Part shown: in pieces, positions 40,955 to 60,148 of the stretch | Position numbering within the stretch: the first letter of the stretch is position 1 | How the letters are laid out: each line of letters opens with the position of its first letter | Source: a virus | DNA length: 64,000 bases | Virus record (IMG/VR): IMGVR_UViG_3300042291_001557 | Coordinates: 1 to 64,000 of that record | Strand: one strand, 5' to 3' | Made by a program: the position numbers and the translations under genes | The notes under the pieces: model-generated | The model's input: the letters and a program-made list of their open reading frames with translations, nothing else | What the model was told of the DNA's origin: nothing | Database searches by the model: none

Positions 40955-41724
40955 TTGCGTTGTTCCTTTCTGTATTTGCCCCTGCGCCAACTAGGGAGAA
41001 GAGGAATTGGTCCACCAAAACCTCTTTCGTAAATAAGCTTAAATACGTTCTCGTCACCAACGTGCATTTTTGAAACATTATCAGAACGTTTAAAAAAAGT
41101 CATTTGGGCAATAGGGGTCCCCTGAGGAATGTAGAACTCTTTGTCCGTCAACACGTTTAAAATTATATTGACCGTATGGTAATAATCCGTGTTTATTACT
41201 CCCGGGATTACGTCAAACTCGGGCCTTGGATTAAGAAGCGAACCAGTCAGAATGCTTGAATATCCTTTTGGCGTCATAAAGCAAAACGGATTCCCAAGCT
41301 TTATGTATTGCCCTTCGCCAACAGATGGGTTTCTTCTTTCCGTAAACGGACAGTCCCCTGTTTGTTTTCTTTCAAAATGCTGTATTGAGCCCATAATTTT
41401 TATGTTTTTTCTGTCGACATTAAACTCAGACTGAATGTCAATACCATTGGGATGAGGCCTTACTCGTAGGTCGGCCCACAATGGGATGGTCACACCGTTA
41501 TGCATCAGGTCTTGTCCGCCAGGGCAATACCTATAACCGTCCTCTAGAGGGGTTTTGGTCGTCCAGTCGTCTTTGGAGAACTTGTTCATGTAGGGCATAA
41601 TATCTTCATCGCCTAACAACCTATTGTCTTCTGCGGTTATTAATATTTCCCCTGGCTTCAACTTGGGTAACTGGTTTACCCTGGATACGCCATCTAGATA
41701 AACAACATTTTTAGAAGATTTCAT
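40945..41724 (-). CDS. DUF6065-like protein (cassette A)
   Basis: RYCPG...GVTIPLWAD...KLGNPF..MTPKGYS...PGVINTDYYH...GTPIAQ..FKR; paralogue of 50916-51710. Family name from recall. Confidence 0.6.
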   Translation of the reverse strand: MKSSKNVVYLDGVSRVNQLPKLKPGEILITAEDNRLLGDEDIMPYMNKFSKDDWTTKTPLEDGYRYCPGGQDLMHNGVTIPLWADLRVRPHPNGIDIQSEFNVDRKNIKIMGSIQHFERKQTGDCPFTERRNPSVGEGQYIKLGNPFCFMTPKGYSSILTGSLLNPRPEFDVIPGVINTDYYHTVNIILNVLTDKEFYIPQGTPIAQMTFFKRSDNVSKMHVGDENVFKLIYERGFGGPIPLLPSWRRGKYRKEQRKWD

Positions 41725-43147: not shown

Positions 43148-43150
43148 GAG

Positions 43151-43777
43151 CTACCTAAGCCATGTTACGAAGGCATACTTGATGCCAAAATTGTTTTCCT
43201 CTACGGGGTGAGCTGTATGTCTATACAAATAGTTTGACGGAAACAAAACCATAGAACCAGCAGAGGGAGAAACCTTTATGCCGAAATAATCAAACTCCAA
43301 TTCGCCTCCGTTGAAGTCGTCATTAAACCACCCGACACAGCTAAGAATGCGACCATTTTCCGAGCCGTAATCACAATGAGAACTGTATTCTCCACCGCTT
43401 GGGTATTTTAATACTCTGTATCCTTCGTCGGTAGACAGCTCAAGGCTGTACTTATCACGATAATGATAAACCGCTGCGTCTATGTTCTTGAATATTTTTT
43501 TCCAGAGTACTGCTGCCGGTTTCATTCTTGGAATATTTTCTATTTTGTTAGCTTGCAGGGGGTTCAACTCCATTTGTACAGACATTCTGTACGATGAAAT
43601 TTTACCGTTGTCAGTTTCTGAATTTTCCCACATCAAGTATGGCCAGTCTTCTTTTGACTCAGATTCAATAAGTTCTATGATGTTTTCAGGTGAAAATATG
43701 TTTTTGTACATAATTACGCCAGGGGCCAACTCTACTATTTCTGAGCTTTCTATAATTTCGTTAACAGACATCATCAT
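43151..43777 (-). CDS. 2OG-Fe(II) oxygenase (cassette A)
   Basis: LKY...HCD...GGELEF...FPSNYLYRHTAHPV...KY..VTW. Confidence 0.9.
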   Translation of the reverse strand: MMMSVNEIIESSEIVELAPGVIMYKNIFSPENIIELIESESKEDWPYLMWENSETDNGKISSYRMSVQMELNPLQANKIENIPRMKPAAVLWKKIFKNIDAAVYHYRDKYSLELSTDEGYRVLKYPSGGEYSSHCDYGSENGRILSCVGWFNDDFNGGELEFDYFGIKVSPSAGSMVLFPSNYLYRHTAHPVEENNFGIKYAFVTWLR

Positions 43778-44204
43778 TTACCGTAAAATCAAAAGTGTGA
43801 ATAATCTTATCTTTATACCAAACGCAAATAGCACAATCTCCCGGCGCACCAAAATTAAGCCCAAAATGAATAGAATGCCTATTTATTTTTTTTACATCTA
43901 GAAATCTGTGCCCATTTGGCTCTCCCACAATGTAGAGAAAAAGACTAATTTTTACATCATCATCAAATACGAGAAATTCGTTTTTGTAATCAATCCGAAT
44001 TAATTGATTTACCTTGACAGGAGAATGAGAAAACTTTATTGAATGCTCTGTTGGGATAGAAATCGGACGAGGGGTGTCTCTGTCAAAAATCAAATCTTTG
44101 GTTCTCTCGTTGTCGCCGATAAGTATGGGGGCGACGTGGAGTCTAGATAATTCCTCTGCTGTGGGAAGCATTTCTTCTGTTGGACAAAAAATTACTGTAT
44201 CCAT
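43761..44204 (-). CDS. Hypothetical protein (cassette A; paralogue of 53802-54218)
   Basis: ATG 44204 with TATTGT 8 nt upstream; AEELSR...ILIGDN resembles AIELAK...IQVGEDN. Confidence 0.65.
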   Translation of the reverse strand: MDTVIFCPTEEMLPTAEELSRLHVAPILIGDNERTKDLIFDRDTPRPISIPTEHSIKFSHSPVKVNQLIRIDYKNEFLVFDDDVKISLFLYIVGEPNGHRFLDVKKINRHSIHFGLNFGAPGDCAICVWYKDKIIHTFDFTVNDDVC

Positions 44205-44230
44205 AAATAGACACAATAGCAGTTAATTCT

Positions 44231-44479
44231 TTATTCCGCCTGAAGTCGAGCAAGGCTGGCCCGTGTAGTCTTTATTCCTACAACCAACATTCGGAAATGA
44301 GTTGAATACATATAAGACTCGCCGTCTTCAGGAACTTCAAAAGTATCCATGTCTACGGTGAGAGGGTCTATCCCTGACTGTATGCAAGTTGTGAAAAAAT
44401 TAGAGTACGCGGTCTCTAGCGCTTTGGTAAGGAGATTTACTGTTTCTTCTGTCGTTATTTCGTCTCTTAGTTCTGGCAT
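44231..44479 (-). CDS. Small acidic helical protein (cassette A; paralogue of 54215-54442)
   Basis: GIDPLTVD resembles NVDPETFD; GAGG RBS; directly after the Gly-rich gene. Confidence 0.7.
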   Translation of the reverse strand: MPELRDEITTEETVNLLTKALETAYSNFFTTCIQSGIDPLTVDMDTFEVPEDGESYMYSTHFRMLVVGIKTTRASLARLQAE

Positions 44480-44488
44480 TTTTCCTCT

Positions 44489-46618
44489 TTAAGCGTTAAT
44501 TATTATTTTTGTACTAGAAGACAAGGATTGAGTAAGCCCCCATGAATCAGTAACAACAATTATACCGCCTTCTAGGCCGGTAGAACCAGCGTTACCCATG
44601 GTCCCCGCTAGACCATTGGTGCCAGCATTGGGTGCTCCATTGGTTCCGGGGTTCCCAGGGTTGCCTGCACCACCAACCGTTCCTGCGTTACCGGCAGCTC
44701 CAGGATTTCCTGCTGCGCCTCCGTGTCCAGTTCCGTTATTCCCATGATTACCTGCTACGCCGGCGTTGCCGGCAGTTCCATGGTTCCCTGCTGTTCCTGC
44801 TGCGCCGTTATGCCCATGACCATTTGTACCAGAATTACCGGCTGCGCCACCATAACTGGTCGCAACAGCATTCTGCCCGTAGTGGGTGTTATGGTTATGC
44901 CCTGCACCGTGTCCGTTGAATTCATTATGTCCTAAACCTATGAAAAAGTGGTTGACGTTTGCTGGGTTTGCGCCACGAGGCCATGTTCTGTTTGCGGGTG
45001 CACCAGTATAGTGAAAAGCATGTTCGGTCGAGTTTCTCCATGAATGTCTAGGAAAATGTGCACTGTTTGATTCGTTAGCAGGGCGACCACCGGAACCACC
45101 AAATGTTCTCATATGACTATAACCTGAGACATGGAACGCATGGGCGTTGGAAGCAGCATTGGGGTTTCCTGCCTGCGAGACATACTGGTAATAAGTGTCA
45201 TTTACTCCCGCATTGCCAGCTGCACCTGCAGTGGCCCCAGTTCCGTTAGCGGCCCCCGTTCCTGCTGTTCCATTTGTTCCTGCGTTGGCTACTCCAGGGT
45301 TTGCTCCGCCTGCGGTGGCACCGCTTCCGCCGTGGCCTCCAGTTCCTACGTTTCCGGGGTTTCCTGCATTGCCTGGGACGAGAGTTCCCACAACTCCGGC
45401 CCCACCGGACGTAGCACCAGTCCCTGCAATCCCAGGATTACCTGACGCACCTGCAGTTCCATGAGAACCAACCCCGCCAGGTTGTCCAACATTAACAACA
45501 GAGCCAGAGCCAGAAATATATTTAGCCACAATCAAAACAACGGGTCCTCCTCTTCCTCCCGTGCCACTTACTCCAGGGTTTCCTGCGTTGCCTGCGGCTC
45601 CAACAGTTCCAGCGTTGCCCGCTAAACCTGCCGCACCAAAATGTCCTGCGTTGGGCGCACCACTGTTTCCTGGGTTACCTGCATTGCCTGCGTTTCCTGC
45701 CGTACCGGCATTTCCTGCTGCACCCGCGTGTCCAGTTCCGCCATGTCCTGTTCCGTTGGTTCCTGGATTGCCATGGTTTCCTGCAGTGCCTGCGTTCCCT
45801 GCTGCACCATTGTTGCCGTGGTTTCCGGCGTGCCCATAACCATAAAGACCATAAGAATTGTGTGTGTTGCCGTGGTTCGAACCAGACGGAATGTGTATTC
45901 CACCAGCAGTAGCTCCCGTTCCTGCCGCTCCTGGGTTGGCCCCACCAGCACCTCCTGCGGTAGCTCCACTTCCTCCGTGCCCACCAGTACCGTTACTGCC
46001 ACCTGTTCCTGGGTTTCCTGCATTTGCTACTCCAGCTCCTCCAGCACCACCAAGGTTTGCTCCAGTTCCAGCAATTCCAGGATTGCCTCCCGTGCCAGGA
46101 TTTCCTGCAACCCCTGGAACTAGGGTTCCTGGATTTCCTAGCGTGCCACTGGTTGCACCACTTCCATCTGCACCCTTGTCGCCACCAGAAAGCACACGAA
46201 TCGAACCAGCATTATCTACAAAATAACCACGAATTGATTTTTCCAAATCATTCAGTGTTGCCAGGTCGATTGGATTAGCTGAAGTCTGACTCAAGCTGTA
46301 AGTAACAATAGAAGCAGCCCCACCAGCCACTGTTCCTGACGGGATTAAGGACGTATGCGAAAGAGTGGCTCCGATGGTTCCGTTGTTGGTTAAGGTCCCT
46401 TTAACAAAGACTCGAAAGCCGTTTGTGATTACAGTGCAACCGCTGTTGACCGTTAGGTTTTCGTAGTACATGTCTCTGGACAAAACAGTTGGAGTTCCAG
46501 TGTTTGAAACAATTACAGTTCCGTCTGTCCCTTGTCCATACACAGAGTCGTTTCCAAGTCTCTGTGTGTACTCTTTAGATTCCGTACCAGGTCTAAACCT
46601 GACAACTCCAATTCCCAT
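44489..46618 (-). CDS. Glycine-rich (G-X-X) putative adhesin/fibre tip, 709 aa, with two His/aromatic loops (cassette A)
   Basis: Scaffold motifs RLGND..YGQGTDG, DMYY.NLTVNSG, TNG.RVFVK, VVLIVAK, IIVVTDS; long GNP/GNA/GTA/GNH runs. Confidence 0.75.
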   Translation of the reverse strand: MGIGVVRFRPGTESKEYTQRLGNDSVYGQGTDGTVIVSNTGTPTVLSRDMYYENLTVNSGCTVITNGFRVFVKGTLTNNGTIGATLSHTSLIPSGTVAGGAASIVTYSLSQTSANPIDLATLNDLEKSIRGYFVDNAGSIRVLSGGDKGADGSGATSGTLGNPGTLVPGVAGNPGTGGNPGIAGTGANLGGAGGAGVANAGNPGTGGSNGTGGHGGSGATAGGAGGANPGAAGTGATAGGIHIPSGSNHGNTHNSYGLYGYGHAGNHGNNGAAGNAGTAGNHGNPGTNGTGHGGTGHAGAAGNAGTAGNAGNAGNPGNSGAPNAGHFGAAGLAGNAGTVGAAGNAGNPGVSGTGGRGGPVVLIVAKYISGSGSVVNVGQPGGVGSHGTAGASGNPGIAGTGATSGGAGVVGTLVPGNAGNPGNVGTGGHGGSGATAGGANPGVANAGTNGTAGTGAANGTGATAGAAGNAGVNDTYYQYVSQAGNPNAASNAHAFHVSGYSHMRTFGGSGGRPANESNSAHFPRHSWRNSTEHAFHYTGAPANRTWPRGANPANVNHFFIGLGHNEFNGHGAGHNHNTHYGQNAVATSYGGAAGNSGTNGHGHNGAAGTAGNHGTAGNAGVAGNHGNNGTGHGGAAGNPGAAGNAGTVGGAGNPGNPGTNGAPNAGTNGLAGTMGNAGSTGLEGGIIVVTDSWGLTQSLSSSTKIIINA

Positions 46619-46620
46619 TG

Positions 46621-47355
46621 TTATACCAACTGCATGTAGTTATAAGTACCAGTATTCGCTCCGGTTACATCTGTAGAGACATTGCTCGGCAAGGAAGAAC
46701 CGCTAGAAATAACAAGAATTACTCCGCCGCCGCCAGGAGAGGTTGCTGGTGCCGCAATTTTAGCATTCACGGATACTGCTGTAGAAACAATGTAGCGAGC
46801 AGCGATTATTACTACTCCTCCGCCTGCCTGCCCTGTTCCGCCTGCTCCACCGCGAAGAAAAGTTGGTCCACCAGACGCTGTAATCGAATATCCGCGAATT
46901 GCTTGAATTGGCTGTTTGTAGTACTCAACCCCACCCATGGCGGCAGTTGGTGGCGTAGCGGTGTAAGTAGCCAAAGCGTTCCCGCCGAGACTATGGGTTA
47001 CTGAAGTAGCAGCGGCTCCGCCTTGCTCTATGGAGCCTGCAGTCGAAAACCCAGTCGTGTAACCGATTACTGAAGCCTCGCCAAGACTTAGCTGTCCCTT
47101 TACCAATATCCTGTAACCAGCCGGGTCTAGACGAATAGACGTATCGATAGATAATGAATCAAGAAACAAGTCTCTGGTCATTGTAAAAACAGAAGAAGAA
47201 TAAGTTAACCCAAGAGAAGCAGAGTACGTTCCTCCACTCCCAGACGTTGTTGACAGAACTGCAGCACCATCGGCCCCTGTTCCGTAAATGGAATCAGGAG
47301 CGTCAATGAAAGCCGAGAAGGCCGTCAACACTGGATATCTTGATACTCCGGCCAT
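46621..47355 (-). CDS. Short glycine-rich scaffold protein (cassette A)
   Basis: MAGVSRYP...YGTGADG...NYMQLV; close paralogue of 56063-56770. Confidence 0.75.
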   Translation of the reverse strand: MAGVSRYPVLTAFSAFIDAPDSIYGTGADGAAVLSTTSGSGGTYSASLGLTYSSSVFTMTRDLFLDSLSIDTSIRLDPAGYRILVKGQLSLGEASVIGYTTGFSTAGSIEQGGAAATSVTHSLGGNALATYTATPPTAAMGGVEYYKQPIQAIRGYSITASGGPTFLRGGAGGTGQAGGGVVIIAARYIVSTAVSVNAKIAAPATSPGGGGVILVISSGSSLPSNVSTDVTGANTGTYNYMQLV

Positions 47356-48300: not shown

Positions 48301-49317
48301 CTAGACAACATACTCAATAATGACAGCGCCATTTGAACCCATGTTCGCAAGGGTGGTGCCTGTGTACCCATTAGCCATGCCCACGGTAAACGAGTAGACA
48401 GTTGACGGAACGGTAGTTACTTGAAAAACTTCCGTTACTCCATCCTGCCCACGACTCGCTTCTATTCTTCCCGAAACCCTAGTATAAACAAGGTCACCAC
48501 TATCCTGCTCTCTAGTCTCCACAGCAACAGCAGTTGCGACACCACCAATTCCTCCAGAGCCAGGGTATCTATTTTCTGCGTCAAAATTGGATGTATTGTT
48601 ACTTGAACTGCCACTAAGTTTAGTTCCGTAAATAATATCACCAGTAATAGTCTCGGTTTTAATCGGTCCCTGTTTGCCCCCAAGAGCGGTATATGTAGTC
48701 CCACCAGCAACAAAGGTTGTTGAGCCACCATCTTCGTAGCCCATCATGGAAGTCGCGGATACAGTAGCGTAGTTGGTTACTGTAAGTGTGGCAAATCCTT
48801 GCCCACCGCCTGCACCAATAAGTGTCAGTTTTATTTGCGTGACACCAGCAGGACAAGTCCATGTTCCGCTACCGTTTGTTGTGTACTTTGTAACATAGAT
48901 TTTGGGGTCCACAGCACTGACTCCTGGGACTCCGCTAACCCCAGGCACGCCACTAACCCCTTGCGGACCAGTTGCACCGGTCGGTCCTCCCGCAGGACCC
49001 GTGGCTCCCGTTAAGCCAGTCGGACCAGTCGGACCTGTCAGACCAGTGGGCCCAGCTATTCCTGTTGGTCCAGTAATTCCTGTTGGTCCAGCAATTCCTG
49101 TTGGCCCTGTTGCCCCAGTCAAACCTGTTGGTCCAGTTGCACCAGTAGGCCCAGTGGGACCCCCTGCAGGCCCTGTTGCTCCTGTTGGACCTGTCGGGCC
49201 AACAACGCCCATAGTGCTTACAAAAAGAGCCCATTTTCCGTCAGTGAATGTCCACGTTTTATTGTTTGTCGTAAACGATGCGCCCGGCGCAGGTGAGTTG
49301 GGGAAATCGATAGCCAT
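48301..49317 (-). CDS. Collagen-like fibre with glycine-rich tip domain
   Basis: [13 protein letters not shown] repeats about 48930-49205, then [21 protein letters not shown]...GAVIIEY. Confidence 0.78.
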
Positions 49318-50915: not shown

Positions 50916-51710
50916 TTACTTCCTTTTGAGTATTTTTTTAATTATACCTTTTTGTTCAGACTGCTTATCTAAAGCATTATCAACAATTACCCTATTGCGA
51001 CGATAAGGACCAGCAGTCCCATCGCTTGGGGCAACGTGCCCTGTCCCAAACCCTGTTGTAGCAACGTATTTAAAGTAAGACTCGTCGTTGAAGATTATTT
51101 CCCCAAAGTCGGAGTTGCGCTTAAACGGAACTACCTGACACATCGGTGTTCCGTATTTTATGGAAAACGGCCTATCACCAATAGGGTTAATAACCATGTT
51201 TGCTAAGTGGTAGAAATCCGTATGAACGATTGACGGAACGAGCGTGTAGTCCTCGTTTGGTTCCCAGTACGGTGGGAGAATCATCGACGACCAGCCTGGG
51301 GCTGTTTCAAAGCGCCACGGATTAATTATCTTTGGGTATTGGCCCGTTGCTACTTTTCTGACAGCAGTCATTGGGCATTCACCGGTGGAGTGAGCAGAAA
51401 ATCCTGATATTGAATTTATCCCAGCTTGTGGTGCAAAATCGTCCCCCGCCGTTTCCCATGTCTCGCCATTTGGGTCTAGACGGAATCTAAAATTTGTCCA
51501 CATAGGAATAGTGACGCCAGCAGTAAGAAAATCTATTGTTCCAGCGCATTTGCGAATGGAGCCCTGATGCTTACCAATTTTCTTAAACCACATAGGAGGA
51601 TTCTGTACTGTGTTAACAAATGGAGGCATCTCCATCAATCTGTTATCCATCGGTGTGAATCTTATTTGTCCAGGTTTTACTGGCGGCATCTTGGTCATTA
51701 TTGGTTCCAT
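50916..51710 (-). CDS. DUF6065-like protein (cassette B)
   Basis: PMWFKK...IRKCAG..DF..AGVTIPMW...KIINPWRFETAPGWS...VHTDFYH...GTPMCQVVPFKR. Confidence 0.65.
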   Translation of the reverse strand: MEPIMTKMPPVKPGQIRFTPMDNRLMEMPPFVNTVQNPPMWFKKIGKHQGSIRKCAGTIDFLTAGVTIPMWTNFRFRLDPNGETWETAGDDFAPQAGINSISGFSAHSTGECPMTAVRKVATGQYPKIINPWRFETAPGWSSMILPPYWEPNEDYTLVPSIVHTDFYHLANMVINPIGDRPFSIKYGTPMCQVVPFKRNSDFGEIIFNDESYFKYVATTGFGTGHVAPSDGTAGPYRRNRVIVDNALDKQSEQKGIIKKILKRK

Positions 51711-53206
51711 TCTTTGTCAATCAACACAATTTCCCGCAAAGCAGTAGCGTGGTCGACTTGTTCGCCACTATTCCGATTTGCTTTGTATTCTGCAATTTTT
51801 TTCTCAACGCTTTGCCGTATCCCAAGCCTATTGAGGGCAGTGGTGGCCGCATCTGGATTGATGGCGTTTTGACCTTGAGCAACATGCCACAAGTGTGCCG
51901 ACAAAAACATCTCGCCGTTTAATGCACTAAAATCAAATCTGGTTGGTGGACGCTCCGCCCATAACTCAATCATCTCCTGCAATTCTTCATTGAGTGGCGT
52001 TACTGACATTTCCCGCCAAAATGGAGTGTCCTGCCTATCCGAATAATAATGGAGACGAACCATCGTAAGAATATTGCGCATCATCAGCTTCATGCTGGCG
52101 TTAAAGTGTTTCTGAGATGCTGTGTGCCCAGGTTGATACGAAGCAAGATAGGGGACAATTTGTTTTACTTGCTGAATTGTTGAACCTATGCTAGAGGCCT
52201 CTAATGGCTCCACAAAAGAAGAAGCCAGCCCGATTGCACAACAGTTCTTTACCCATGTGTTCTTTAGATAGCCCGCGTCAAAATTAATAACACGATGGGC
52301 TTCAATCTTGTAGCCGGACATCTCTTCGGCTTCACGTACCGCTTCTTCTTCGGTTATAAATTTAGACGAAAATACGTATCCGTTTCCACGCCGTTCTTGA
52401 GTGGGGAGTTCCCAGAGCCACCCGGAAGAGGCAGCACGAGCACGTGTGTAGGGACGAATTCTTCCGTTGGGGTCAGATTCCGTAGGAAACGCAATTGCCG
52501 TATCGCACAAAAGATGGTCACTGAAAGAAGACCAATCATCTGCCCCAAGTTTTTTCATCAATATTCTGCTAAAGCCACTAGCGTCAAACCAAAAGTCTGA
52601 CGCAATGGTTTCATTTGATTTGGTTACTACGGATAGTATATTTCCGTTTTCGCTATCAAGATTAATAGAATCTACTTCTGCCTCAATAAACTCAATCTGT
52701 CTCTTGAACGCCAGAGTAATTAGATAATTATTTAGCTTATGCGTATCAAAATGGTATTGATTTGTAGACCGGTGCATTCCCGCTTTGCTGATTTTGTCTT
52801 TTACCAATGCAACGTTCGTAATCTGTGGGGTCAAAAGCTTCCCCTCTTCCAGATATTGCATATAAGTTGCGTGTGCTCCAAAAGCATAAATATCATCTAC
52901 GTCACCTACGCTATGAAAATAGTCAGGATTTTTTGTTGTCCAGTTTTCAAATCTAATTCCGTACTTATGCGTACCAGCTGTCTCGACAAGCATTTCTTCA
53001 ATAGGGATGTCACATAGGTCAGCAAACTGACGCCAGTGTTCCGTGCTTCCCTCCCCCACGCCAATAATCCCAATTTTTGAGGACGATACAACTTTTATTC
53101 CCGCTATGGGAAAGGCTTTGCGCAAAATCAAAGAAGCAAGTAGTCCTGCTGTTCCAGACCCGACGATGGTAATAATAAATGGTTTTTTTTCTTGTTTGTA
53201 ATCCAT
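51698..53206 (-). CDS. Flavin-dependent halogenase, tryptophan-halogenase family (cassette B)
   Basis: GSGTAG, IGVGEGS, GTHKYGIRF, YHFD, GWLWELP, FVEPLEASSI. Confidence 0.92.
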   Translation of the reverse strand: MDYKQEKKPFIITIVGSGTAGLLASLILRKAFPIAGIKVVSSSKIGIIGVGEGSTEHWRQFADLCDIPIEEMLVETAGTHKYGIRFENWTTKNPDYFHSVGDVDDIYAFGAHATYMQYLEEGKLLTPQITNVALVKDKISKAGMHRSTNQYHFDTHKLNNYLITLAFKRQIEFIEAEVDSINLDSENGNILSVVTKSNETIASDFWFDASGFSRILMKKLGADDWSSFSDHLLCDTAIAFPTESDPNGRIRPYTRARAASSGWLWELPTQERRGNGYVFSSKFITEEEAVREAEEMSGYKIEAHRVINFDAGYLKNTWVKNCCAIGLASSFVEPLEASSIGSTIQQVKQIVPYLASYQPGHTASQKHFNASMKLMMRNILTMVRLHYYSDRQDTPFWREMSVTPLNEELQEMIELWAERPPTRFDFSALNGEMFLSAHLWHVAQGQNAINPDAATTALNRLGIRQSVEKKIAEYKANRNSGEQVDHATALREIVLIDKEWNQ

Positions 53207-53223
53207 AACTGAATCTTACTCTA

Positions 53224-53805
53224 CTAGCAAAACCATGTCACTAGAGAGTGCTTAACGCCTTCAAGGACGGGATGGGCAACATGCAAGTAGGGGAAATTTG
53301 AAGGAAACATAAGAACCGAACCTGTTTTCAGCTTGACGGTCACATCAAAGGTGGGAAACTCTAATTCTCCGCCACTTTCGGCTTCCCCAAGGGATGCGAC
53401 AATACTAAAAACACGCCTATTGTCTCTCCAGTGGTCATAGTGAGCACGATATTCTCCTCCTTGGTAGTATTTGAGGATTGCAAATTCTTCAGGGATGGCG
53501 TCCTCTATCATGAATTCTTGACGGTAATCTTCGGCGACCGCCATGCAGGGTAAAAAAATGTTTTTTTGGTAGAAATCAGATAATTCAGTTTTTTCATACG
53601 GAGGGAGCAAAGACGTAAGAACACAATTAATAGAAGTTCTAGTATCGGTCGTTGACCCTGCTCCGGTTTTACCGTAGTCCCATTCGAGGCCGGACCACTC
53701 GTTCGCAGTTTCTTCTTCTACTTTAGCTAAGAACTCAATCGCTACTGATTCAGGGAACACGTCTTCATACAGGGATACGCACGGTGCTATTTTTGTATTT
53801 TTCAT
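53224..53805 (-). CDS. 2OG-Fe(II) oxygenase (cassette B)
   Basis: LKY...HYD...GGELEF...FPSNFPYLHVAHPV...KH..VTW. Confidence 0.9.
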   Translation of the reverse strand: MKNTKIAPCVSLYEDVFPESVAIEFLAKVEEETANEWSGLEWDYGKTGAGSTTDTRTSINCVLTSLLPPYEKTELSDFYQKNIFLPCMAVAEDYRQEFMIEDAIPEEFAILKYYQGGEYRAHYDHWRDNRRVFSIVASLGEAESGGELEFPTFDVTVKLKTGSVLMFPSNFPYLHVAHPVLEGVKHSLVTWFC

Positions 53806-54218
53806 ATAACCCTAAATTCCCCAGAACAATAGTCTTCTGTTTCAGAAACAGTAATTTTATACTTCCAATTTCCCAGACTAACGTATCTTGAACGAAAACG
53901 CAAGCTATGAACCTGACGAACGGAAGGTTTTGTAATTACCGTTTCCCCGGTTTCTGAAGTAGCAATCAATCGAGCATCGCGTCCAAAAAAAACAAATTCG
54001 TCTGTCAGGTCAATGCAGAAAACGTATCCAGACTCAACGGTAGGCGGTATTTCTACCACTTTTTTGTATGGGACACTAACGATGCAAATATCTGTGTATT
54101 TGTTGTCTTCCCCAACCTGTATGGACAGCATTGTTTTTTTTGCCAACTCTATGGCCTTTAAGGGGATTTCATTGTTTTCCAGAAGTAGGGATACTGGAAC
54201 ATGAATAAATCTTTTCAC
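53802..54218 (-). CDS. Hypothetical protein (cassette B; paralogue of 43761-44204)
   Basis: GTGA/ATGA coupling on both sides; same slot as in cassette A. Confidence 0.65.
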   Translation of the reverse strand: MKRFIHVPVSLLLENNEIPLKAIELAKKTMLSIQVGEDNKYTDICIVSVPYKKVVEIPPTVESGYVFCIDLTDEFVFFGRDARLIATSETGETVITKPSVRQVHSLRFRSRYVSLGNWKYKITVSETEDYCSGEFRVI

Positions 54219-54442
54219 GACAGTTCGGTGATTTTTACTTTTACCCGATTGAGAGCATTTACTAACTCTTGAATACGAATGTACTCACCAGTGAAATTTG
54301 TTCCAGTAAAGCCAACTTCTTCATCAAAAGTTTCTGGGTCAACATTCAAACGAACAAGAAGCGTATACAGCTCTTTTTCTATTCCGGATTTTGAACTTTG
54401 ACAAAGTTCAATTTTTTCTGCTTGCGTTAAGTTGAATTCCAT
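54215..54442 (-). CDS. Small acidic helical protein (cassette B)
   Basis: AGGAG RBS; LNVDPETFD motif. Confidence 0.72.
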   Translation of the reverse strand: MEFNLTQAEKIELCQSSKSGIEKELYTLLVRLNVDPETFDEEVGFTGTNFTGEYIRIQELVNALNRVKVKITELS

Positions 54443-54450
54443 GATTTCTC

Positions 54451-56061
54451 CTACGAATTAATTAATACGTACGCTGCACCCGCGGAGGCAACATAGTTGT
54501 CTGAGTCGACCGTTAGTCCTGCGCGAGTATCGTAAGTGATTGTGTTTGCTATTGAGTCCGTGACGATAAGGATAGCACCGCCGCCACCGGCCCCACCACG
54601 TTTTCCATTTGGACCAGCAATCGCTGGCCCTCCTGCTCCTCCTGCCCCTCCTGCTCCGCCTGGATATACTGTTGGCGCAACATGTGTTGAAACGCTATTG
54701 GGGTGATGAGAATGTCTTGCGGTAGTCCCTGAGGGTCCTGCATAAAAAACGGCCCCAACGCCAACTCCGTTATTGTGATGAGGGTGGTTATTGCCAAAGT
54801 GAATATGGTTGTCACTCCCTCCGGCATTACCTATCCAATCCATGTGGTGATTATGACCCGTGGTCGCGCCGTGTGAATGGCCACCATGGCTGTTTGGTTT
54901 TTGATGATAGTGAGGAAATGGATAATGATGAGTTATCTGAAAATAAGCGTGCCACCAGTGCGGTTCCCAGTGGTGTGCTCCACCGTGGGGTCCATCGTTG
55001 TGGGGGGAATGGTGATGGCCATTGTGGTGGTGATGAGGGGTCGCGTGGTGATGCGGGGTTCCTCTATGAAAGTGGTGAGGGGTCGAGTGGGCACCATGAG
55101 CCCCATGCTTGGCGTCGGTAAGGGCATGAACATGCTCTTGAACGTTTTCGTGTTGCTGGACGTGCTGCCGAACGCCATGCTTATGCATGTTTGAGTGATT
55201 AGTGTAATAGTGATGATGGTCAGGGTTATGGGTTGCGGGATGCGCAACGTTAACGTTCGGATTGGGGTGTGAGTAAGCAGGGGCGGGTGTTCCCGTACCA
55301 CCCGCAGTACCCGCAGTACCTGCGCCACCCGCCGTTCCTGCGACACCCGACATTCCCAGTGAAATTATTTTCCCTGTTCCTACAACCGTTTTAGCTACTA
55401 CACAAACAACTGCTCCACCTGCTCCGCCAATTCCACTGACTCCGGAAGTTCCAGGCGTCCCAGCATTTCCAGTTCCACCAGTCCCCCCTCTGCCTCCGAC
55501 TGCACCAACAGTGTGTGCGTTTGGAGCGTACGAACCAGCCGCTCCTGCTGTGCCTGGACTTCCTGGAGACGGTGCGGCTCCTGCGGTTGGAGCACCAGCA
55601 GTACCTCCAACTCCTCCACCTATGTTTTGAAAACCTGACGGGGTTGGAACTAAGCCACCAGCCATCGCATCGATTGACTTAAATAAATACAGCGGGAGCG
55701 GATTGCCGCCTGGGTTTGTTCCGCCTCCGCCCACTCCACCAGCGTTGTAGGTAATAGGAACGGTGTTTGTTCCCACAGTAGTTTTAGTTGTTACTGCGGT
55801 CGGCTCTCCAACTACACCTGCAGTAACAGAACCGGAACCAATATAGCCATTTAGCGTTAGTGTGTTTTTAACAAAAACTCTGTAGCCGTTTGTCTTTAAC
55901 AAAACTCCCGAGTTTACAGTGAGGTTGTTGTAGTACATATCGCTCGTTATGGAAGTATCTGACGAAACAGTAACGTTTCCATCAGTACCCTGACCATAGA
56001 TGTCGTCGTTACCTAGTCTTTGCGAAAAGCTTTGAGTCCTAAACTTCTCTATGCCAGCCAT
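54451..56061 (-). CDS. Glycine-rich putative adhesin/fibre tip, 536 aa, with an extremely His-rich insert (cassette B)
   Basis: Same scaffold motifs as 44489-46618; insert about 54664-55278 has roughly 54 His in 205 residues (hand count). Confidence 0.78.
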   Translation of the reverse strand: MAGIEKFRTQSFSQRLGNDDIYGQGTDGNVTVSSDTSITSDMYYNNLTVNSGVLLKTNGYRVFVKNTLTLNGYIGSGSVTAGVVGEPTAVTTKTTVGTNTVPITYNAGGVGGGGTNPGGNPLPLYLFKSIDAMAGGLVPTPSGFQNIGGGVGGTAGAPTAGAAPSPGSPGTAGAAGSYAPNAHTVGAVGGRGGTGGTGNAGTPGTSGVSGIGGAGGAVVCVVAKTVVGTGKIISLGMSGVAGTAGGAGTAGTAGGTGTPAPAYSHPNPNVNVAHPATHNPDHHHYYTNHSNMHKHGVRQHVQQHENVQEHVHALTDAKHGAHGAHSTPHHFHRGTPHHHATPHHHHNGHHHSPHNDGPHGGAHHWEPHWWHAYFQITHHYPFPHYHQKPNSHGGHSHGATTGHNHHMDWIGNAGGSDNHIHFGNNHPHHNNGVGVGAVFYAGPSGTTARHSHHPNSVSTHVAPTVYPGGAGGAGGAGGPAIAGPNGKRGGAGGGGAILIVTDSIANTITYDTRAGLTVDSDNYVASAGAAYVLINS

Positions 56062-56062: not shown

Positions 56063-56770
56063 TTAAACCAACTGCATGTAATTTACAGTGCCAGGATTCT
56101 GTCCAGTTACATCTGTTGTGACGTTTGCAGGAAGACCGGCTGCCGACGAAACCACAAGGACAACTCCCCCGCCAGCAGGGGCAGTTGCTTTTGCTGAAAT
56201 CTCGGCCGTGCCGCTTAGTGGACCCGAGATATACCTTGCGGCGACTATTACTATTCCGCCACCTTTTTGTCCAGCGCCACCGGCTCCACCACGAAGATAT
56301 GTTGGGCCACCCGAAGCAGTAAGAGAATATCCTAGAACCGCATTTCTTGGTTGCTGGAAATACTTAGCTCCTCCCAAGGAGTCTAATGGGGCAGTTGCCG
56401 TATAGCCAGTTGCTGAACCACCAAGAGAATGAGCAACAGCCAAGGAAGCTACCTGTCCCTGGAGTATTGAGCCACTGTCCGAATACCCAGTTATGTATCC
56501 AATACGGGAAGATGTTCCTAGTGTGAGTATGTTTTTGACAAACAAACGATATCCGTTTGGTTTTAAATGAATGTTGTCATTAATCGTTAGGTTGAACAGA
56601 TACAAGTCCGCAACCATGGAATAAACGTTTGATGCCGGAATCATCCCCAAAACAGTGGATGAGCCATTAAGGGTCGCTGAACCATCAGCCCCAGAACCGT
56701 AAACAGAATCGGCAGCATCAATGAATTGCCCAAAAGCATTCAAGGCTGGATAGCGGGCCACGCCAGCCAT
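56063..56770 (-). CDS. Short glycine-rich scaffold protein (cassette B)
   Basis: MAGVARYP...YGSGADG...NYMQLV. Confidence 0.75.
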   Translation of the reverse strand: MAGVARYPALNAFGQFIDAADSVYGSGADGSATLNGSSTVLGMIPASNVYSMVADLYLFNLTINDNIHLKPNGYRLFVKNILTLGTSSRIGYITGYSDSGSILQGQVASLAVAHSLGGSATGYTATAPLDSLGGAKYFQQPRNAVLGYSLTASGGPTYLRGGAGGAGQKGGGIVIVAARYISGPLSGTAEISAKATAPAGGGVVLVVSSAAGLPANVTTDVTGQNPGTVNYMQLV

Positions 56771-57403: not shown

Positions 57404-60148
57404 TTAAGCCTGCGCTTCCGTCCAAGAAAGACGACTAAATACGGTGGCCGACAAACTTCCCAAGTTGGTTACCGAGATTATCAACACGTCAGGACCATCC
57501 GGATAAATGCCGCTCGATGTGTCAGAACCACCTCCGCCAAGAACGCAGTTTCCCAAGTCTCGTACCGGGTTTAGGTCGATTGAGTTTGCTCCCGTGCTAA
57601 CGAAAAACCCACCCGTTACCTCACCGCCAGTAACGGTTGCTCCAGATGTAAAGTTGGCTACCTGAGCAAGACTTGATGTTGACACAGAAGGCTTAGTCCA
57701 GGTTCTTGTCTGGCTTGGCGTTCCATTCAATGTTGCAGTTACTAGCAGGTTGGCGTTACTAGTAGTTGTTGTTAAGTCAAGAGCACGCAAAATTAACTGC
57801 ATTCTATTTATCAACTCACGGCTACCAAAAACACCTGAGGTTCCGTTGTCCACCGACGGGGACACTCTAATTGCAAGAATTGCGTTAGTTGCTCCTGCGG
57901 CTACGGACACACCAGTTGACTGGCCATAGGTAAAAACCAAAGACTTATCATCGTCGAATCTGCCGTCCATGATGATTGATGTACCCCAGTGGGAGATGGA
58001 TGGGGCATATGTAGGATAAGCAAGCTCTACGTTGACAGGGTTGGTTGATGAATAGTTAAACGTAACTGGAGCACCGGCCATGGGAATGGCTGCAACAGTA
58101 GGACTTGATGCCGTTACTGCTTGGCTTAGCTCGATTGTTGTCGAGTTAGTAATTTTGGAGATAAACGTTCCTTCGGGAATGTTTAGACCAGAAAGACGCT
58201 GACCAACTTGTAAGTTTGCAATCGACGCCACGGTACACACGTTACTTCCAGTTGAAACAGTCAGAGCAAGGCTGGGGTTTCCGGTTTGTGCACGGGTAAT
58301 CCCAGTAAATGTCGTTTCTGTTTTTCCTGTGTAGTTGATAAATTCCCAACCATACAGGTTGTTCGACACCACTAATGTTCCAGCAGACGGGAAACCGTTA
58401 GTACTCGTAACATAAAGCGTTGTTGCTGACGAAGAAAATGTTTGAGTTATTTCCGTATCAGGCGGCTGAGTCATTGATTCGTATCGTCCAGGCAAGTTTC
58501 CTGAGCGCATAAACGATTCACTGTTGGTGTTGTTGTTCAACATTTTGTGACAATACGTTACGTTTCCATCTGCGGCACGAAGCCCCCATCTGACAGAACC
58601 TGCTCCATACCATGAATAGTCAATGTAAAACATTTGCATTTTACTTAAATCAAGATTGTATCCGCTAGGGCCTGTGCCGTCGAATTTATCTACGTTCCAA
58701 TTTGCTTGGGCAATTTTCGTATCTATGGTTTTAGATACGATAACCATGTCAGCAGTTGCACCTCTATATGCGGGGTTGATTGTCATGTTGGTGTCGCTGG
58801 ATATGTCCATAACTCTGTATGACTGACCGCGCAAAACAATATAGTCACCTGTTTTTAACTGTTTAGCAAACCTTGTGGGAAAAGATGCATCGGTTTGGTT
58901 TATGTCGCAACTTCCGTTAGTCGCACTAACTTTTCCGGATATCTGAAAAGTTGACGAGCGCCTTACAGCCCATAGTGTCACTCCGTCGAACTCAAAGAAC
59001 ATTCCGTTTTGTTGGTCAAAAATACCAATTCTGTTTACGCAGCCGTACCACGTGGAAACCGTAATGTAATACTGCCCGGAAGCCGTTGAAGCACTTGGAA
59101 CACTTAGTGCTATGTAGGTCAAGGTGTTGTAACCAGTAACCGTATAAACAGTAAATGTTCCGTTGTATGCGGTTTCGTTAGCGTCGTGAACGAAAATAGT
59201 AGAGCCGGGCTGAAGGTTGTGTTTTTCTTTTGTTTGTACAGTTACTGTTGTTCCGACTGAAGTTAGTGAATCCAACTGAAGGTCGGGTTTCAGCAACGTT
59301 CCTGAACTCATCTGCACACCCTTACCGGACTGGTATCGGAAGTAACGACGTGTTTGACGAATTGCTGATTCGAAGTTTGATGTTCCGTTGGATGAGAAAA
59401 TTACACCACCATCAAACGGCCTGTGCAAGAACTGAGCCTGCGGCCGTGTGAAAACTTTTCCAACCGAGAAACCAATTGTGCCTGTTGGAGCTGTAATAAC
59501 GTTGTATCTAAACGTCACCGCATCTACGATTCCCGTAACGGCAAAAGAACCGTTAGGTGCGTTGGTTGACGCAGTCAGACCCATTACGGCTATTTCGTTT
59601 CCGAGTGACAGTCCGTGAGGAACCGTAGTCACGACAAGAATCGTTGTCCCGGAATAAGTAACGCTAGATGGGGCGGCACCTATTTGGGCACCGGTATATA
59701 TTGCCCCAGTAGAGAAGATTGTTTTGTTGGCATCAAAGATGTTGATGACAGTGCTCGTGTTAACCGCTTTTGCGGTATACGTGAATGAAGTAGAACCGTT
59801 CGATGTTTCCACAAGGTAGTTTCCGTTGGCGATAGCAAGAAAGGTGTCCTGAACAGACACTGCAGTATTGACTGCAGGCGCTCCACTTGAGCAAGTTACG
59901 GTTACTGTTCGTGAACCAGTTGGCTGACTGACTGCTGTTACCGTAGTAATAGGAACCTGGGTGTTATAAACAAATGGACGGTTGTTGGTTAAACCAAGGT
60001 TTTCCCATTTTGAGATTTGTGTACCGTACTCAAAGTCAGTGTCGATAAGTGCCTGAGGCTGAGATACACGAAACCTGTTAACTGGGTCAACAAGAACAGG
60101 CGTTCCATTGACAATTGTGTCACTAGGCGGAAACTGAGATACACCCAT
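57404..60148 (-). CDS. Large virion structural / receptor-binding protein with repeated small beta-barrel domains
   Basis: 914 aa Thr/Ser-rich; repeats such as T..PHGLS.G..I...NG.F.V; FRYQSGKG and YSWYGAG motifs typical of phage virion proteins. Confidence 0.7.
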   Translation of the reverse strand: MGVSQFPPSDTIVNGTPVLVDPVNRFRVSQPQALIDTDFEYGTQISKWENLGLTNNRPFVYNTQVPITTVTAVSQPTGSRTVTVTCSSGAPAVNTAVSVQDTFLAIANGNYLVETSNGSTSFTYTAKAVNTSTVINIFDANKTIFSTGAIYTGAQIGAAPSSVTYSGTTILVVTTVPHGLSLGNEIAVMGLTASTNAPNGSFAVTGIVDAVTFRYNVITAPTGTIGFSVGKVFTRPQAQFLHRPFDGGVIFSSNGTSNFESAIRQTRRYFRYQSGKGVQMSSGTLLKPDLQLDSLTSVGTTVTVQTKEKHNLQPGSTIFVHDANETAYNGTFTVYTVTGYNTLTYIALSVPSASTASGQYYITVSTWYGCVNRIGIFDQQNGMFFEFDGVTLWAVRRSSTFQISGKVSATNGSCDINQTDASFPTRFAKQLKTGDYIVLRGQSYRVMDISSDTNMTINPAYRGATADMVIVSKTIDTKIAQANWNVDKFDGTGPSGYNLDLSKMQMFYIDYSWYGAGSVRWGLRAADGNVTYCHKMLNNNTNSESFMRSGNLPGRYESMTQPPDTEITQTFSSSATTLYVTSTNGFPSAGTLVVSNNLYGWEFINYTGKTETTFTGITRAQTGNPSLALTVSTGSNVCTVASIANLQVGQRLSGLNIPEGTFISKITNSTTIELSQAVTASSPTVAAIPMAGAPVTFNYSSTNPVNVELAYPTYAPSISHWGTSIIMDGRFDDDKSLVFTYGQSTGVSVAAGATNAILAIRVSPSVDNGTSGVFGSRELINRMQLILRALDLTTTTSNANLLVTATLNGTPSQTRTWTKPSVSTSSLAQVANFTSGATVTGGEVTGGFFVSTGANSIDLNPVRDLGNCVLGGGGSDTSSGIYPDGPDVLIISVTNLGSLSATVFSRLSWTEAQA

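What the first reader, a model, noticed from the sequence alone, without database searches (positions are those of the whole stretch)
54664..55278. About 205-residue insert that is roughly one quarter histidine, on a G-X-X stalk
Seen: AYSHPNPNV...PHHFHRGTPHHHATPHHHHNGHHHSPH...HHWEPHWWHAYF...HVAPTVY has about 54 His (hand count), many HxH and HH pairs and four Trp, flanked by Gly-X-X runs. It is not a simple tandem repeat. Established: HxH pairs chelate Fe/Zn in the T4 gp37 and gp12 fibre tips. Inference: a metal-loaded needle or sponge for binding a host metal-uptake receptor or mineral surface, and the likeliest substrate of the neighbouring halogenase and oxygenase.
Basis: partly seen in the sequence, partly recalled or inferred. 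Interest (0 to 1): 0.75.

Follow-up and report, generated by a model that had tools for sequence, protein, structure and literature searches.

The report
Conserved histidine-rich module in phage fibre protein
A lake-water phage encodes a fibre-type protein whose middle 205 residues are 26% histidine; this module is conserved in dozens of related phages and always sits next to a halogenase and an oxygenase, so it is probably a metal-binding, possibly enzyme-modified, surface module of a kind not yet described.

Summary
The segment lies on the minus strand in a 536-aa ORF (54451-56061). Residues 262-466 hold 54 His in 205 (26%) and 4 Trp; the other 331 residues hold one His.

It is a conserved domain, not a chance low-complexity run. 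In 50 relatives from viral contigs the insert is 17-36% His, 33 of the 54 His positions are His in at least half of them, and dN/dS is 0.17, the same as the scaffold's 0.16. The HxH and HH counts only match what the composition predicts.

AlphaFold2 models the flanks, Gly-rich runs included, as a confident single-chain beta-helix-like scaffold. The insert is modelled poorly. The same site holds Phe/Pro-rich or acidic/Trp-rich modules in other clades.

Every locus over 15 kb with a His-rich version carries the same downstream genes: a P4H-like 2OG-Fe(II) oxygenase, a flavin-dependent halogenase and a dUTPase-fold protein. A clade with no His has a GlcNAc-transferase in place of the halogenase.

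My best reading is an exposed metal-binding module on a virion adhesin or fibre protein, probably tailored by the neighbouring enzymes. Neither metal binding nor modification is shown. The comparison with the T4 gp37 iron needle is not supported. The first-stage scan had already noted the duplicated cassette on this same DNA.

The parts
54451..56061 (-). Whole gene for the 536-aa Gly/His-rich scaffold protein (P0001)
   Evidence: Single open frame. It has 274 homologues at E<=1e-3 in the 90% clusters and 1294 in the 50% representatives. The only family hit is PHROG 13336, of unknown function, on res 22-76; Pfam and NCBIfam give nothing.
55834..56010 (-). N-terminal module of about 55-60 aa (res 18-76), core motif GND..YG.G.DG...DMYYNNLT
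   Evidence: This is the most conserved part. It recurs inside many longer proteins and in MAGs of many bacterial phyla. The paralogues at 56063-56770 and 44489-46618 share it.
55279..56061 (-). N-terminal scaffold part (res 1-261), ending in the G-X-X run at res 235-261 (55279-55359)
   Evidence: AF2 pLDDT is mostly above 90 from res 20. The best structural matches are beta-helix/solenoid proteins at middling Z: 7.4 bactofilin 6ria_A, 7.2 IcsA 3ml3_A, 5.1 S16 gp38 6f45_D.
54664..55278 (-). His-rich insert (res 262-466): 54 His, 4 Trp, 8 Tyr, 17 Pro, 18 Asn
   Evidence: Composition. AF2 pLDDT is 35-64. In 50 relatives it is 130-242 aa long and 17-36% His. Median NG86 omega is 0.17 against 0.16 for the scaffold.
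54871..55053 (-). Conserved core of the insert (res 337-397), consensus about HHHH.G(H).HHPHNDGPHGG.HHW..H.WHA...P.PH.H.KPNGH
   Evidence: Alignments A1 and c2. H345, H346, H351, H354 and H359 are His in at least 90% of 50 relatives. G348, P353, G360, K388 and N390 are conserved in at least 75%.
55027..55089 (-). Short 'TPHHH' peptide repeat, 3 copies (res 325-345), in the length-variable part of the insert
   Evidence: Self-comparison. The alignment shows gaps and a variable copy number here; P0084 has about 5 copies.
54454..54663 (-). C-terminal scaffold part (res 467-536): a Gly run (GGAGGAGGAGG...GKRGGAGGGG) followed by beta strands
   Evidence: pLDDT 87-97. G468, G469, G471, G472, G486, G489 and G492-495 are invariant in A1.
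56063..56770 (-). Short paralogue (235 aa) directly upstream: the same scaffold without inserts
   Evidence: Matches res 1-82 of P0001. It lies upstream of the His-rich gene in all 80 loci.
54215..54442 (-). 75-aa acidic helical protein downstream
   Evidence: Present in 46 of 80 loci, always directly after the His-rich gene. No family hit.
53802..54218 (-). 138-aa protein of unknown function
   Evidence: Present in 52 of 80 loci in the same position. No family hit.
53224..53805 (-). P4H-like 2OG-Fe(II) oxygenase (193 aa)
   Evidence: PF13640, E 3e-11. The HxD motif is at H122/D124. Present in 69 of 80 loci.
51698..53206 (-). Flavin-dependent (Trp-type) halogenase (502 aa)
   Evidence: PF04820, E 1e-100. 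GSGTAG, THK(81)YG, WLWELP and EPLE motifs are intact. PDB relatives are RebH/PyrH/PrnA/BrvH at about 1e-52 to 1e-54 and VirX1 at 4e-42. Present in 67 of 80 loci and in all 50 loci over 15 kb.
50916..51710 (-). 264-aa conserved protein with a dUTPase-like fold (distant DUF6065 relative)
   Evidence: AF2 pLDDT 86. dUTPase matches: Z 10.7 to 7pwx_HHH and Foldseek E 3e-5. Distant hits carry PF19541. Present in 63 of 80 loci.

Best explanation
The segment is a conserved histidine-rich domain of about 200 aa. It is inserted between two Gly-rich rungs of a single-chain beta-helix-like scaffold protein, encoded in the tail and fibre gene block of an uncultured lake-water myovirus.

The insertion site works as an exchangeable module slot. 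Other clades of the same scaffold carry Phe/Pro-rich or acidic/Trp-rich modules there. The His-rich module is therefore most likely the exposed, functional end of a virion adhesin or fibre-accessory protein.

Its chemistry is about 50 imidazoles, with conserved HH/HxH, PH, W and KPNG positions and almost no hydrophobic core. That points to folding around, or cross-linking by, divalent metal ions (Zn, Ni, Cu or Fe). This would explain why structure predictors that see no metal fail on it.

The protein is co-inherited with a tailoring set. The P4H-like oxygenase probably hydroxylates Pro in the Gly/Pro-rich arms. The flavin-dependent halogenase probably halogenates Trp, Tyr or His side chains in the insert.

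Shown here: the composition, its conservation, purifying selection, the scaffold-plus-insert architecture and the conserved gene order. Inferred: location in the virion, metal binding, the host-contact role and modification by the neighbouring enzymes.
For: Composition and clustering of His; P = 8e-24.

Conservation:
- Most full-length homologues have 20-39 His per 100 aa in the same place.
- In 50 relatives the insert is 17-36% His.
- 33, 18 and 6 of the 54 His positions are His in at least 50%, 75% and 90% of them, and there is a conserved core motif.

Selection:
- Omega is 0.17 in the insert and 0.16 in the scaffold over 29 pairs.
- Insert identity is 0.46 where scaffold identity is 0.59.
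- All homologous frames are intact.

Architecture:
- AF2 models the scaffold at pLDDT above 90, Gly runs included, and the insert at 35-64.
- The best matches are beta-helix adhesins, tailspikes and bactofilin, Z 5-7.4.

Module slot:
- The P0098 clade has a Phe/Pro-rich insert with 0 His.
- P0065 and P0089 have acidic/Trp-rich inserts.
- Nucleotide identity dips only over the insert in otherwise 93-98% identical loci.

Structural context:
- The gene lies among fibre-like and collagen-like genes.
- It is near a 914-aa homologue (about 45% identity) of proteins annotated as virion structural proteins in S-PM2 and S-RSM4.

Cassette:
- The order is u124, 235-aa paralogue, His-rich gene, 75-aa, 138-aa, 2OG, halogenase, 264-aa protein. 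It holds in all 50 loci over 15 kb and is duplicated in the window with a His/Tyr-rich paralogue.
- The His-free clade keeps the 2OG gene and the 264-aa homologue. In place of the halogenase it has a PF11397 gene, the Pfam 'Glycosyltransferase (GlcNAc)' family.
- The halogenase motifs are intact.
- The natural substrate of the one characterised viral halogenase, VirX1, is not listed, and its active site is described as large and accessible (PMC8407142).
Against: - No metal-binding, virion or modification data exist for any member. No relative was found among 50,697 deposited phage records, so no proteomics can be borrowed.
- The insert is predicted with low confidence and could be intrinsically disordered.
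- HxH and HH pairs are no more frequent than composition predicts.
- The halogenase also accompanies a marine clade whose insert has only 9 His. It is therefore tied to the scaffold family or to aromatic residues, not to histidine as such.
- The 2OG oxygenase accompanies every insert type, so it probably does not act on the His-rich part specifically.
- The structural matches of the scaffold are middling (Z at most 7.4), which is in the range of common arrangements.
Confidence: 0.5

Rival explanations
1. T4 gp37-like metal needle. Three chains intertwine, and regularly spaced HxH pairs from each chain coordinate a column of Fe or Zn ions. This forms a rigid receptor-binding tip, possibly aimed at a host metal-uptake receptor ('Ferrojan horse').
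For: - HxH pairs bind seven Fe ions in the T4 gp37 tip, and similar motifs have been proposed for marine phages (PMC11705849).
- Five HxH pairs of the insert are positionally conserved: 293/295, 343/345 and 419/421 in at least 75% of relatives, 395/397 and 403/405 in at least 50%.
- Several of these fall in or next to strands of the low-confidence AF2 model.
Against: - A profile of 79 family members matches no solved structure, gp37 and gp12 included.
- The number of HxH pairs equals the shuffle expectation.
- His density is far higher and less regular than I recall for gp37 (my own knowledge, not tested here).
- The flanking scaffold is confidently modelled as one chain folding on itself, and the insert leaves and re-enters the same chain. 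That topology is a loop domain, not a fibre shaft.
Confidence: 0.1
2. Metal-free, intrinsically disordered poly-imidazole region that acts as a pH or charge switch. It would be near neutral in alkaline lake water and strongly cationic (up to about +50) below pH 6. It could then stick to anionic envelope polysaccharide, or change conformation at the cell surface to trigger infection.
For: - Low pLDDT across the insert.
- Only 8 acidic and 6 basic residues against 54 His.
- Insert length varies from 130 to 242 aa, with an expandable TPHHH repeat.
- The habitat is lake water.
Against: - A well-conserved core motif with invariant His, Gly and Pro positions, and omega 0.17. That is more constraint than a purely compositional disordered region usually shows.
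- Conserved Trp and Pro positions suggest a defined structure.
Confidence: 0.2
3. The insert is mainly a substrate platform for covalent chemistry. The halogenase and oxygenase convert His, Trp, Tyr or Pro side chains into halogenated or hydroxylated residues. These cross-link or harden the fibre tip, as in the Gly/His-rich, halogen- and Zn-containing jaw proteins of Nereis worms. Metal binding would be secondary.
For: - Strict co-occurrence of the halogenase with His/aromatic-rich inserts in three clades, and its replacement by a glycosyltransferase in the His-free clade.
- Two complete enzyme sets for the two paralogous proteins in the window.
- The analogy to the Gly/His-rich halogenated jaw proteins is from my own knowledge and was not tested here.
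Against: - The evidence is gene neighbourhood only.
- No flavin reductase was recognised in the cassette.
- The PDB relatives are annotated as tryptophan or small-molecule halogenases.
- The halogenase is no closer to 5uao, which I recall as the peptide-acting MibH (6e-41), than to RebH.
Confidence: 0.15
4. Not a virion part. It would be an intracellular metal sponge, in the manner of Hpn or HypB His-rich proteins, that sequesters or delivers Ni, Zn, Cu or Fe during infection, for example to supply the Fe(II)-dependent oxygenases encoded next to it.
For: - Extreme His content.
- Three 2OG-Fe(II) oxygenase genes lie nearby in the window.
Against: - The His-rich part is grafted onto a beta-helix scaffold shared with fibre-like paralogues and with proteins that carry quite different inserts.
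- The gene sits inside the tail and fibre block.
- A sponge would not need this scaffold.
Confidence: 0.05

Closest known systems
T4 gp37 long-tail-fibre tip (HxH iron-binding needle) and the proposed HxH fibres of marine phages
   Same: A phage fibre-region protein in which histidines are likely metal ligands. Some HxH pairs are positionally conserved (PMC11705849).
   Different: - No sequence match.
- HxH is not enriched over composition.
- 26% His over 205 aa, rather than a few spaced pairs.
- The topology is an insert in a single-chain scaffold, not a trimeric shaft.
gp38-type adhesins of T-even phages (S16 gp38: Gly-rich motifs forming a polyglycine-II sandwich that displays hypervariable loops)
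   Same: - Gly-rich conserved runs alternate with a variable segment that differs in kind between clades.
- The Gly runs are modelled with high confidence but without alpha or beta structure.
- 6f45_D appears among the structural matches: Z 5.1, rmsd 3.9 over 121 residues.
   Different: - The match is weak and other beta-solenoids score higher.
- There is no sequence homology.
- The variable segment here is 130-242 aa and conserved within its clade, rather than short hypervariable loops.
Beta-helix adhesins, tailspikes and bactofilin
   Same: These are the best structural matches of the scaffold: 6ria_A Z 7.4, 3ml3_A Z 7.2, 2iou_H Z 7.1, 4oj5_A Z 5.7.
   Different: - Z is below 8, in the range of a common arrangement.
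- None of them carries a His-rich insert or the Gly-run rungs.
His-rich metal-binding proteins and biomaterials (Hpn, HypB/SlyD tails, histidine-rich glycoprotein, Nereis jaw protein Nvjp-1, mussel preCol His-rich flanks); comparison from my own knowledge
   Same: Comparable His fraction. In Nvjp-1 and the preCols, His is combined with Gly-rich or collagen-like sequence, metal cross-linking and (in Nereis) halogenation.
   Different: Compositional and chemical analogy only. No homology was tested or expected, and the organisms and context differ.
Viral flavin-dependent halogenase VirX1 (cyanophage Syn10), as the closest studied relative of the neighbouring enzyme
   Same: Same family as the neighbour gene: 6qgm at E 4e-42 and about 26% identity to the Syn10/Syn9 gene. 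The natural substrate of VirX1 is not listed in the review (PMC8407142).
   Different: In P-SSM2 and S-H38 the halogenase sits among other genes, and no relative of the Gly/His-rich protein was found anywhere in deposited phage records. The conserved cassette appears specific to the uncultured lineages.

Membership tests
T4 gp37/gp12-type HxH metal-binding fibre tip | Sequence homology to the gp37 or gp12 C-terminal domains | tested here: not met
   A profile of 79 family members searched against all PDB chain sequences gave no fibre-tip match at E<=1. Pfam, PHROGs and NCBIfam gave no such family.
T4 gp37/gp12-type HxH metal-binding fibre tip | Recurrent HxH motif as a specific signal, beyond composition | tested here: not met
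   14 HxH observed against 13.9 +/- 2.8 in 5000 shuffles (P = 0.56). Five HxH pairs are positionally conserved, so some may still be ligands.
T4 gp37/gp12-type HxH metal-binding fibre tip | Homotrimeric intertwined chain with octahedral six-His metal sites | not testable with these tools
   This needs an oligomeric state and a metal analysis. The monomer model shows the insert leaving and re-entering one chain's scaffold.
gp38-type adhesin (Gly-rich motifs plus variable segments, PGII sandwich) | Conserved Gly-rich motifs bracketing variable segments | tested here: met
   Invariant Gly columns flank the insert. The insert type differs between clades.
gp38-type adhesin (Gly-rich motifs plus variable segments, PGII sandwich) | Structural similarity to S16 gp38 (6f45_D) | tested here: inconclusive
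   VIA Z 5.1, rmsd 3.9, 121 aligned. Foldseek E 7.7.
Collagen triple helix (PF01391) | Long uninterrupted Gly-X-Y repeat recognised by the Pfam model | tested here: not met
   P0001 has no Pfam hit, and its G-X-X runs are only about 7 and about 4 triplets. The paralogue at 44489-46618 has a sub-threshold hit: 23.7 bits against a cut-off of 27.2.
Single-chain beta-helix/solenoid adhesin fold | Stacked beta rungs, with structural similarity to known beta-helices | tested here: inconclusive
   The top 50 VIA matches are nearly all beta-helices, but Z is at most 7.4. Foldseek finds nothing at E<=0.001.
Flavin-dependent halogenase (neighbour gene 51698-53206) | GxGxxG FAD motif, WxWxIP, catalytic Lys and Glu | tested here: met
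   PF04820, E 1e-100. GSGTAG at 16, K81 in THKYG, WLWELP at 263, EPLE at 333.
P4H-like 2OG-Fe(II) oxygenase (neighbour gene 53224-53805) | PF13640 domain with the HxD...H iron triad | tested here: met
   PF13640, E 3e-11. H122-x-D124 and a downstream His are present. The substrate was not tested.

The most novel reading that the evidence does not exclude
The His/Trp-rich module is the natural protein substrate of a viral flavin-dependent halogenase, with a P4H-like oxygenase acting on the same protein. The phage would then build a halogenated, hydroxylated, metal-cross-linked tip on a virion protein. That would be the first enzymatic halogenation of a viral structural protein, and an answer to what phage-encoded 'tryptophan halogenases' are for.
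Probability: 0.25. Interest if true: 0.9.

Novelty: new variant of a known kind. Interest (0 to 1): 0.62.

Why it matters
Phage fibre and adhesin proteins with exchangeable receptor-binding modules are well known. A conserved 200-residue module that is one quarter histidine has not been described, and it has no relative in Pfam, in the PDB or in deposited phage genomes.

If it binds metal, these abundant lake phages carry tens of metal ions per protein copy. That would bear on how phages recognise hosts and on trace-metal pools in fresh water.

The fixed partnership with a halogenase and a prolyl-hydroxylase-like oxygenase gives a concrete, testable candidate for the unknown natural substrate of viral halogenases such as VirX1. 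It also suggests that some phages enzymatically tailor their virion proteins.

Tried and rejected
- tblastn against 50,697 deposited phage records found no match for the whole protein, its N-terminal 130 aa or the 235-aa paralogue. No cultured relative or proteomic evidence could be used.
Contexts came from the search for related loci instead.
- Foldseek against the PDB gave nothing at E<=0.001.
- BFVD gave only collagen-like or glycine-rich viral proteins with low TM (0.12-0.36) and high rmsd, so the similarity is compositional.
- The PDB profile search gave nothing relevant.
- The ESM Atlas search with the insert gave no usable hit.
- A search for the insert (res 270-460) inside longer proteins found none.
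- Complex prediction with 3 copies of res 255-475 plus 4 Zn gave no verdict (score 0.00; controls not run). The partner's own fold was uncertain.
- The look-up of sequencing runs listed no RNA holder; the DNA holders are lake-water metagenomes.
- No psbA was found in the 100-kb record, which is 63% complete, so the host stays unknown.
- The bacterial genome scan found only the N-terminal module of about 55 aa, in MAGs of many phyla. The fuller scaffold appeared in one Gammaproteobacteria MAG. This gives no host clue.

Rejected readings:
- A chance or non-coding low-complexity tract. The frame is intact in all relatives, omega is 0.17 and positions are conserved.
- A simple tandem repeat.
- A codon-slippage tract, because the His codons are balanced.

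Caveat: synonymous divergence in the insert is 3-5 times that of the scaffold in some close pairs. NG86 on a His-rich region, where every His site is two-fold degenerate, may inflate dS. I therefore treat recombination of the insert as a hint, supported by the local dip in nucleotide identity, not as shown.
Full report
**Where it is.** The + strand of 54664-55278 translates to a frame full of stops. The feature is on the minus strand, inside a 536-aa ORF at 54451-56061 (P0001). The given coordinates correspond exactly to residues 262-466.
- That segment has 54 His in 205 residues (26%), 4 Trp, 8 Tyr, 17 Pro and 18 Asn. The remaining 331 residues have one His, and the protein is 19% Gly overall.
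- The clustering is far beyond chance (hypergeometric P = 8e-24).
- The flanks are Gly-rich with G-X-X periodicity (res 235-261 and 467-495). Tandem Repeats Finder finds repeats only there, and none in the insert.
- Inside the insert the only repeat is a short 'TPHHH' motif, three copies at res 325-345.
- His codons are balanced (29 CAC, 26 CAT), so the tract was not made by codon slippage.
- The HxH (14) and HH (15) counts are exactly what the composition gives (13.9 and 14.0 in shuffles). They are not a signal in themselves.

**Origin.** The window is part of a 100-kb IMG/VR virus record estimated 63% complete.
- It holds a terminase, a tail sheath and tail-fibre genes.
- The 914-aa neighbour at 57404-60148 is about 45% identical to proteins annotated as virion structural proteins in Synechococcus myoviruses S-RSM4 and S-PM2.
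- The stretch is held by lake-water metagenomes.
- No psbA is present in the fragment, so the host is unknown.

**It is a family, and the histidines are conserved.**
- The protein has 274 homologues at E<=1e-3 in the 90%-identity clusters and 1294 in the 50% representatives. None has a Pfam domain, apart from an extra N-terminal PF07603 in some.
- Most full-length homologues have 20-39 His per 100 residues in the same central position.
- In 50 relatives taken from viral contigs, the insert is 130-242 aa long and 17-36% His (median 26%).
- Of the 54 His positions, 33 are His in at least 50% of relatives, 18 in at least 75% and 6 in at least 90% (H345, H346, H351, H354, H359, H429).
- There is a recognisable core motif around res 337-397. 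It has conserved Gly, Pro, Lys and Asn positions, and Trp at several positions.
- Nei-Gojobori dN/dS over 29 pairs is 0.17 in the insert and 0.16 in the scaffold. Amino-acid identity is 0.46 in the insert where it is 0.59 in the scaffold.
- The insert is therefore under purifying selection as a protein sequence.

**Architecture.** AlphaFold2 with a 79-sequence alignment gives mean pLDDT 75.
- Residues 20-270 and 460-536, including both Gly runs, are mostly above 90. Residues 273-456 score 35-64.
- Foldseek finds nothing in the PDB.
- The independent aligner lists almost only beta-helix or solenoid proteins, but at middling Z. Examples are bactofilin 6ria_A Z 7.4, IcsA autochaperone Z 7.2, the pertactin complex chain 2iou_H Z 7.1, the CBA120 tailspike Z 5.7 and S16 gp38 Z 5.1.
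- I read the scaffold as a single-chain beta-helix-like body. The Gly runs are part of that body rather than a free stalk, and the His-rich part is an excursion that leaves and re-enters it.
- A profile of the family matches no solved structure by sequence.

**The insertion site is a module slot.**
- More distant scaffold relatives carry quite different sequences at the same place. One clade has a Phe/Pro/Asn-rich module with no His at all (P0098). Others have acidic, Trp- and Cys-containing modules (P0065, P0089).
- The paralogue in the window (44489-46618, 709 aa) has two such inserts, rich in His, Tyr and Asn (31 His, 17 Tyr). The short paralogues at 56063-56770 and 46621-47355 have none.
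- In loci that are otherwise 93-98% identical, nucleotide identity drops to 82-87% only over the insert. Synonymous divergence is 3-5 times higher there in several close pairs.
- This hints that the insert is exchanged by recombination. Part of the dS excess may be a method artefact in a His-rich region.
- A conserved scaffold with a swappable module is the usual design of phage receptor-binding proteins.

**The gene neighbourhood is remarkably fixed.**
- All 50 related viral loci longer than 15 kb show the same order: 124-aa protein, 235-aa paralogue, His-rich protein, (75-aa), (138-aa), 2OG-Fe(II) oxygenase, halogenase, 264-aa protein.
- Over all 80 loci, including short ones, the 2OG gene is found in 69, the halogenase in 67 and the 264-aa gene in 63. 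The misses are contigs that end too early.
- The window holds a second, paralogous copy of the whole set around the 709-aa protein. First-stage notes had also seen this.
- The oxygenase is PF13640 (prolyl-4-hydroxylase-like) with an HxD motif.
- The halogenase is PF04820 with GxGxxG, the catalytic Lys, WxWxLP and EPLE intact. It is related to RebH, PyrH, PrnA, BrvH and VirX1.
- The 264-aa protein is confidently modelled (pLDDT 86) with a dUTPase-like fold (Z 10.7; Foldseek E 3e-5). It is distantly related to DUF6065.

**A natural comparison.**
- The His-free clade (loci L087-L093) keeps the 2OG oxygenase and a homologue of the 264-aa protein. It has no halogenase hit. In L093, the one locus I annotated, a 409-aa PF11397 GlcNAc-transferase lies between them.
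- From my own knowledge, PF11397 includes the enzyme that glycosylates hydroxyproline on Skp1. Its pairing with a P4H-like oxygenase strongly suggests that these cassettes tailor the adjacent Gly/Pro-rich protein.
- However, a marine clade whose insert has only 9 His (but 4 Trp) does have the halogenase, together with two oxygenases.
- The halogenase therefore goes with some insert types, not with histidine as such. The oxygenase goes with all insert types and more likely acts on the shared Gly/Pro arms.
- In the cultured cyanophages I examined (P-SSM2, S-H38) the halogenase sits in an unrelated context. The review I read lists no natural product for VirX1 and describes a large, open active site (PMC8407142).

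**Interpretation.** I commit to the following reading, at about 50%.
- The His-rich module is an exposed, metal-binding domain of a virion adhesin or fibre-accessory protein. It is kept by selection and probably needs metal ions (and perhaps enzymatic modification) to fold. That would explain the failure of metal-blind predictors.
- The T4 gp37 'iron needle' analogy (PMC11705849) is a fair functional lead for His-metal chemistry, but it fails as a family assignment. There is no homology and no HxH enrichment, and the topology is a loop rather than a shaft.
- The rivals are a metal-free pH or charge switch, a mainly covalent cross-linking platform, and an intracellular metal sponge.

**Literature.** I found no paper on histidine-rich cyanophage proteins, or on halogenases acting on virion proteins, in the library.

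**Limits.**
- Nothing here shows metal binding, virion location or modification.
- The complex prediction of three insert copies with zinc gave no verdict.
- Model coordinates could not be inspected to see where the insert emerges from the scaffold.

Noticed in passing
window 40169-47355 (minus strand): A second, paralogous copy of the cassette. In order: a 244-aa short scaffold, a 709-aa scaffold protein with two His/Tyr/Asn-rich inserts and collagen-like G-X-Y arms, small ORFs, a 2OG oxygenase (43151-43777), a halogenase (41711-43147), a dUTPase-like 265-aa protein (40945-41742) and a further 2OG oxygenase (40169-40990).
   Followed up: partly
L093:13501-16587 (also L087-L092): Relatives with a His-free, Phe/Pro-rich insert keep the 2OG oxygenase and the dUTPase-fold protein. 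L093 carries a PF11397 GlcNAc-transferase where the halogenase would be. This resembles a hydroxyproline-then-GlcNAc pathway.
   Followed up: partly
window 50916-51710 (minus strand): The conserved 264-aa cassette protein has a confident dUTPase-like fold plus a long C-terminal helix. Cys55, Asp165, Tyr167 and Arg198 are invariant. Its function in a protein-tailoring cassette is unexplained.
   Followed up: partly
window 55834-56010; L113-L144: The N-terminal module of about 55 aa (GND..YG.G.DG...DMYYNNLT...NG[FY]R[VI]FVK) is very widespread. It has 1294 representatives, lies inside proteins of up to 1764 aa, and occurs in MAGs of Planctomycetota, Patescibacteria, Chloroflexota, Acidobacteria and others. 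It has no Pfam family.
   Followed up: partly
L099:11877-13160: A marine clade of the cassette has two tandem 2OG oxygenases and a halogenase next to a scaffold protein with an acidic, Trp-containing, His-poor insert.
   Followed up: partly
L015/L023/L028, about 11400-11900 in locus coordinates: Nucleotide identity dips to 82-87% only over the His-rich insert, while the flanks and downstream enzyme genes are 93-98% identical. This suggests patch-wise exchange of the insert.
   Followed up: partly
P0009, P0025, P0036, P0068, P0070 and others: Some homologues of 660-740 aa carry an extra N-terminal PF07603 (DUF1566 / Lcl C-terminal-like) domain ahead of the scaffold.
   Followed up: no
window 13089-14228 (+): A PAPS-reductase-like auxiliary metabolic gene (phrog_2302, E 7e-75) lies in the same phage fragment.
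   Followed up: no
window 48301-49317 (minus strand) and 28680-30683 (+): Further collagen-like and tail-fibre genes in the window. These are possible additional substrates for the three P4H-like oxygenases.
   Followed up: no
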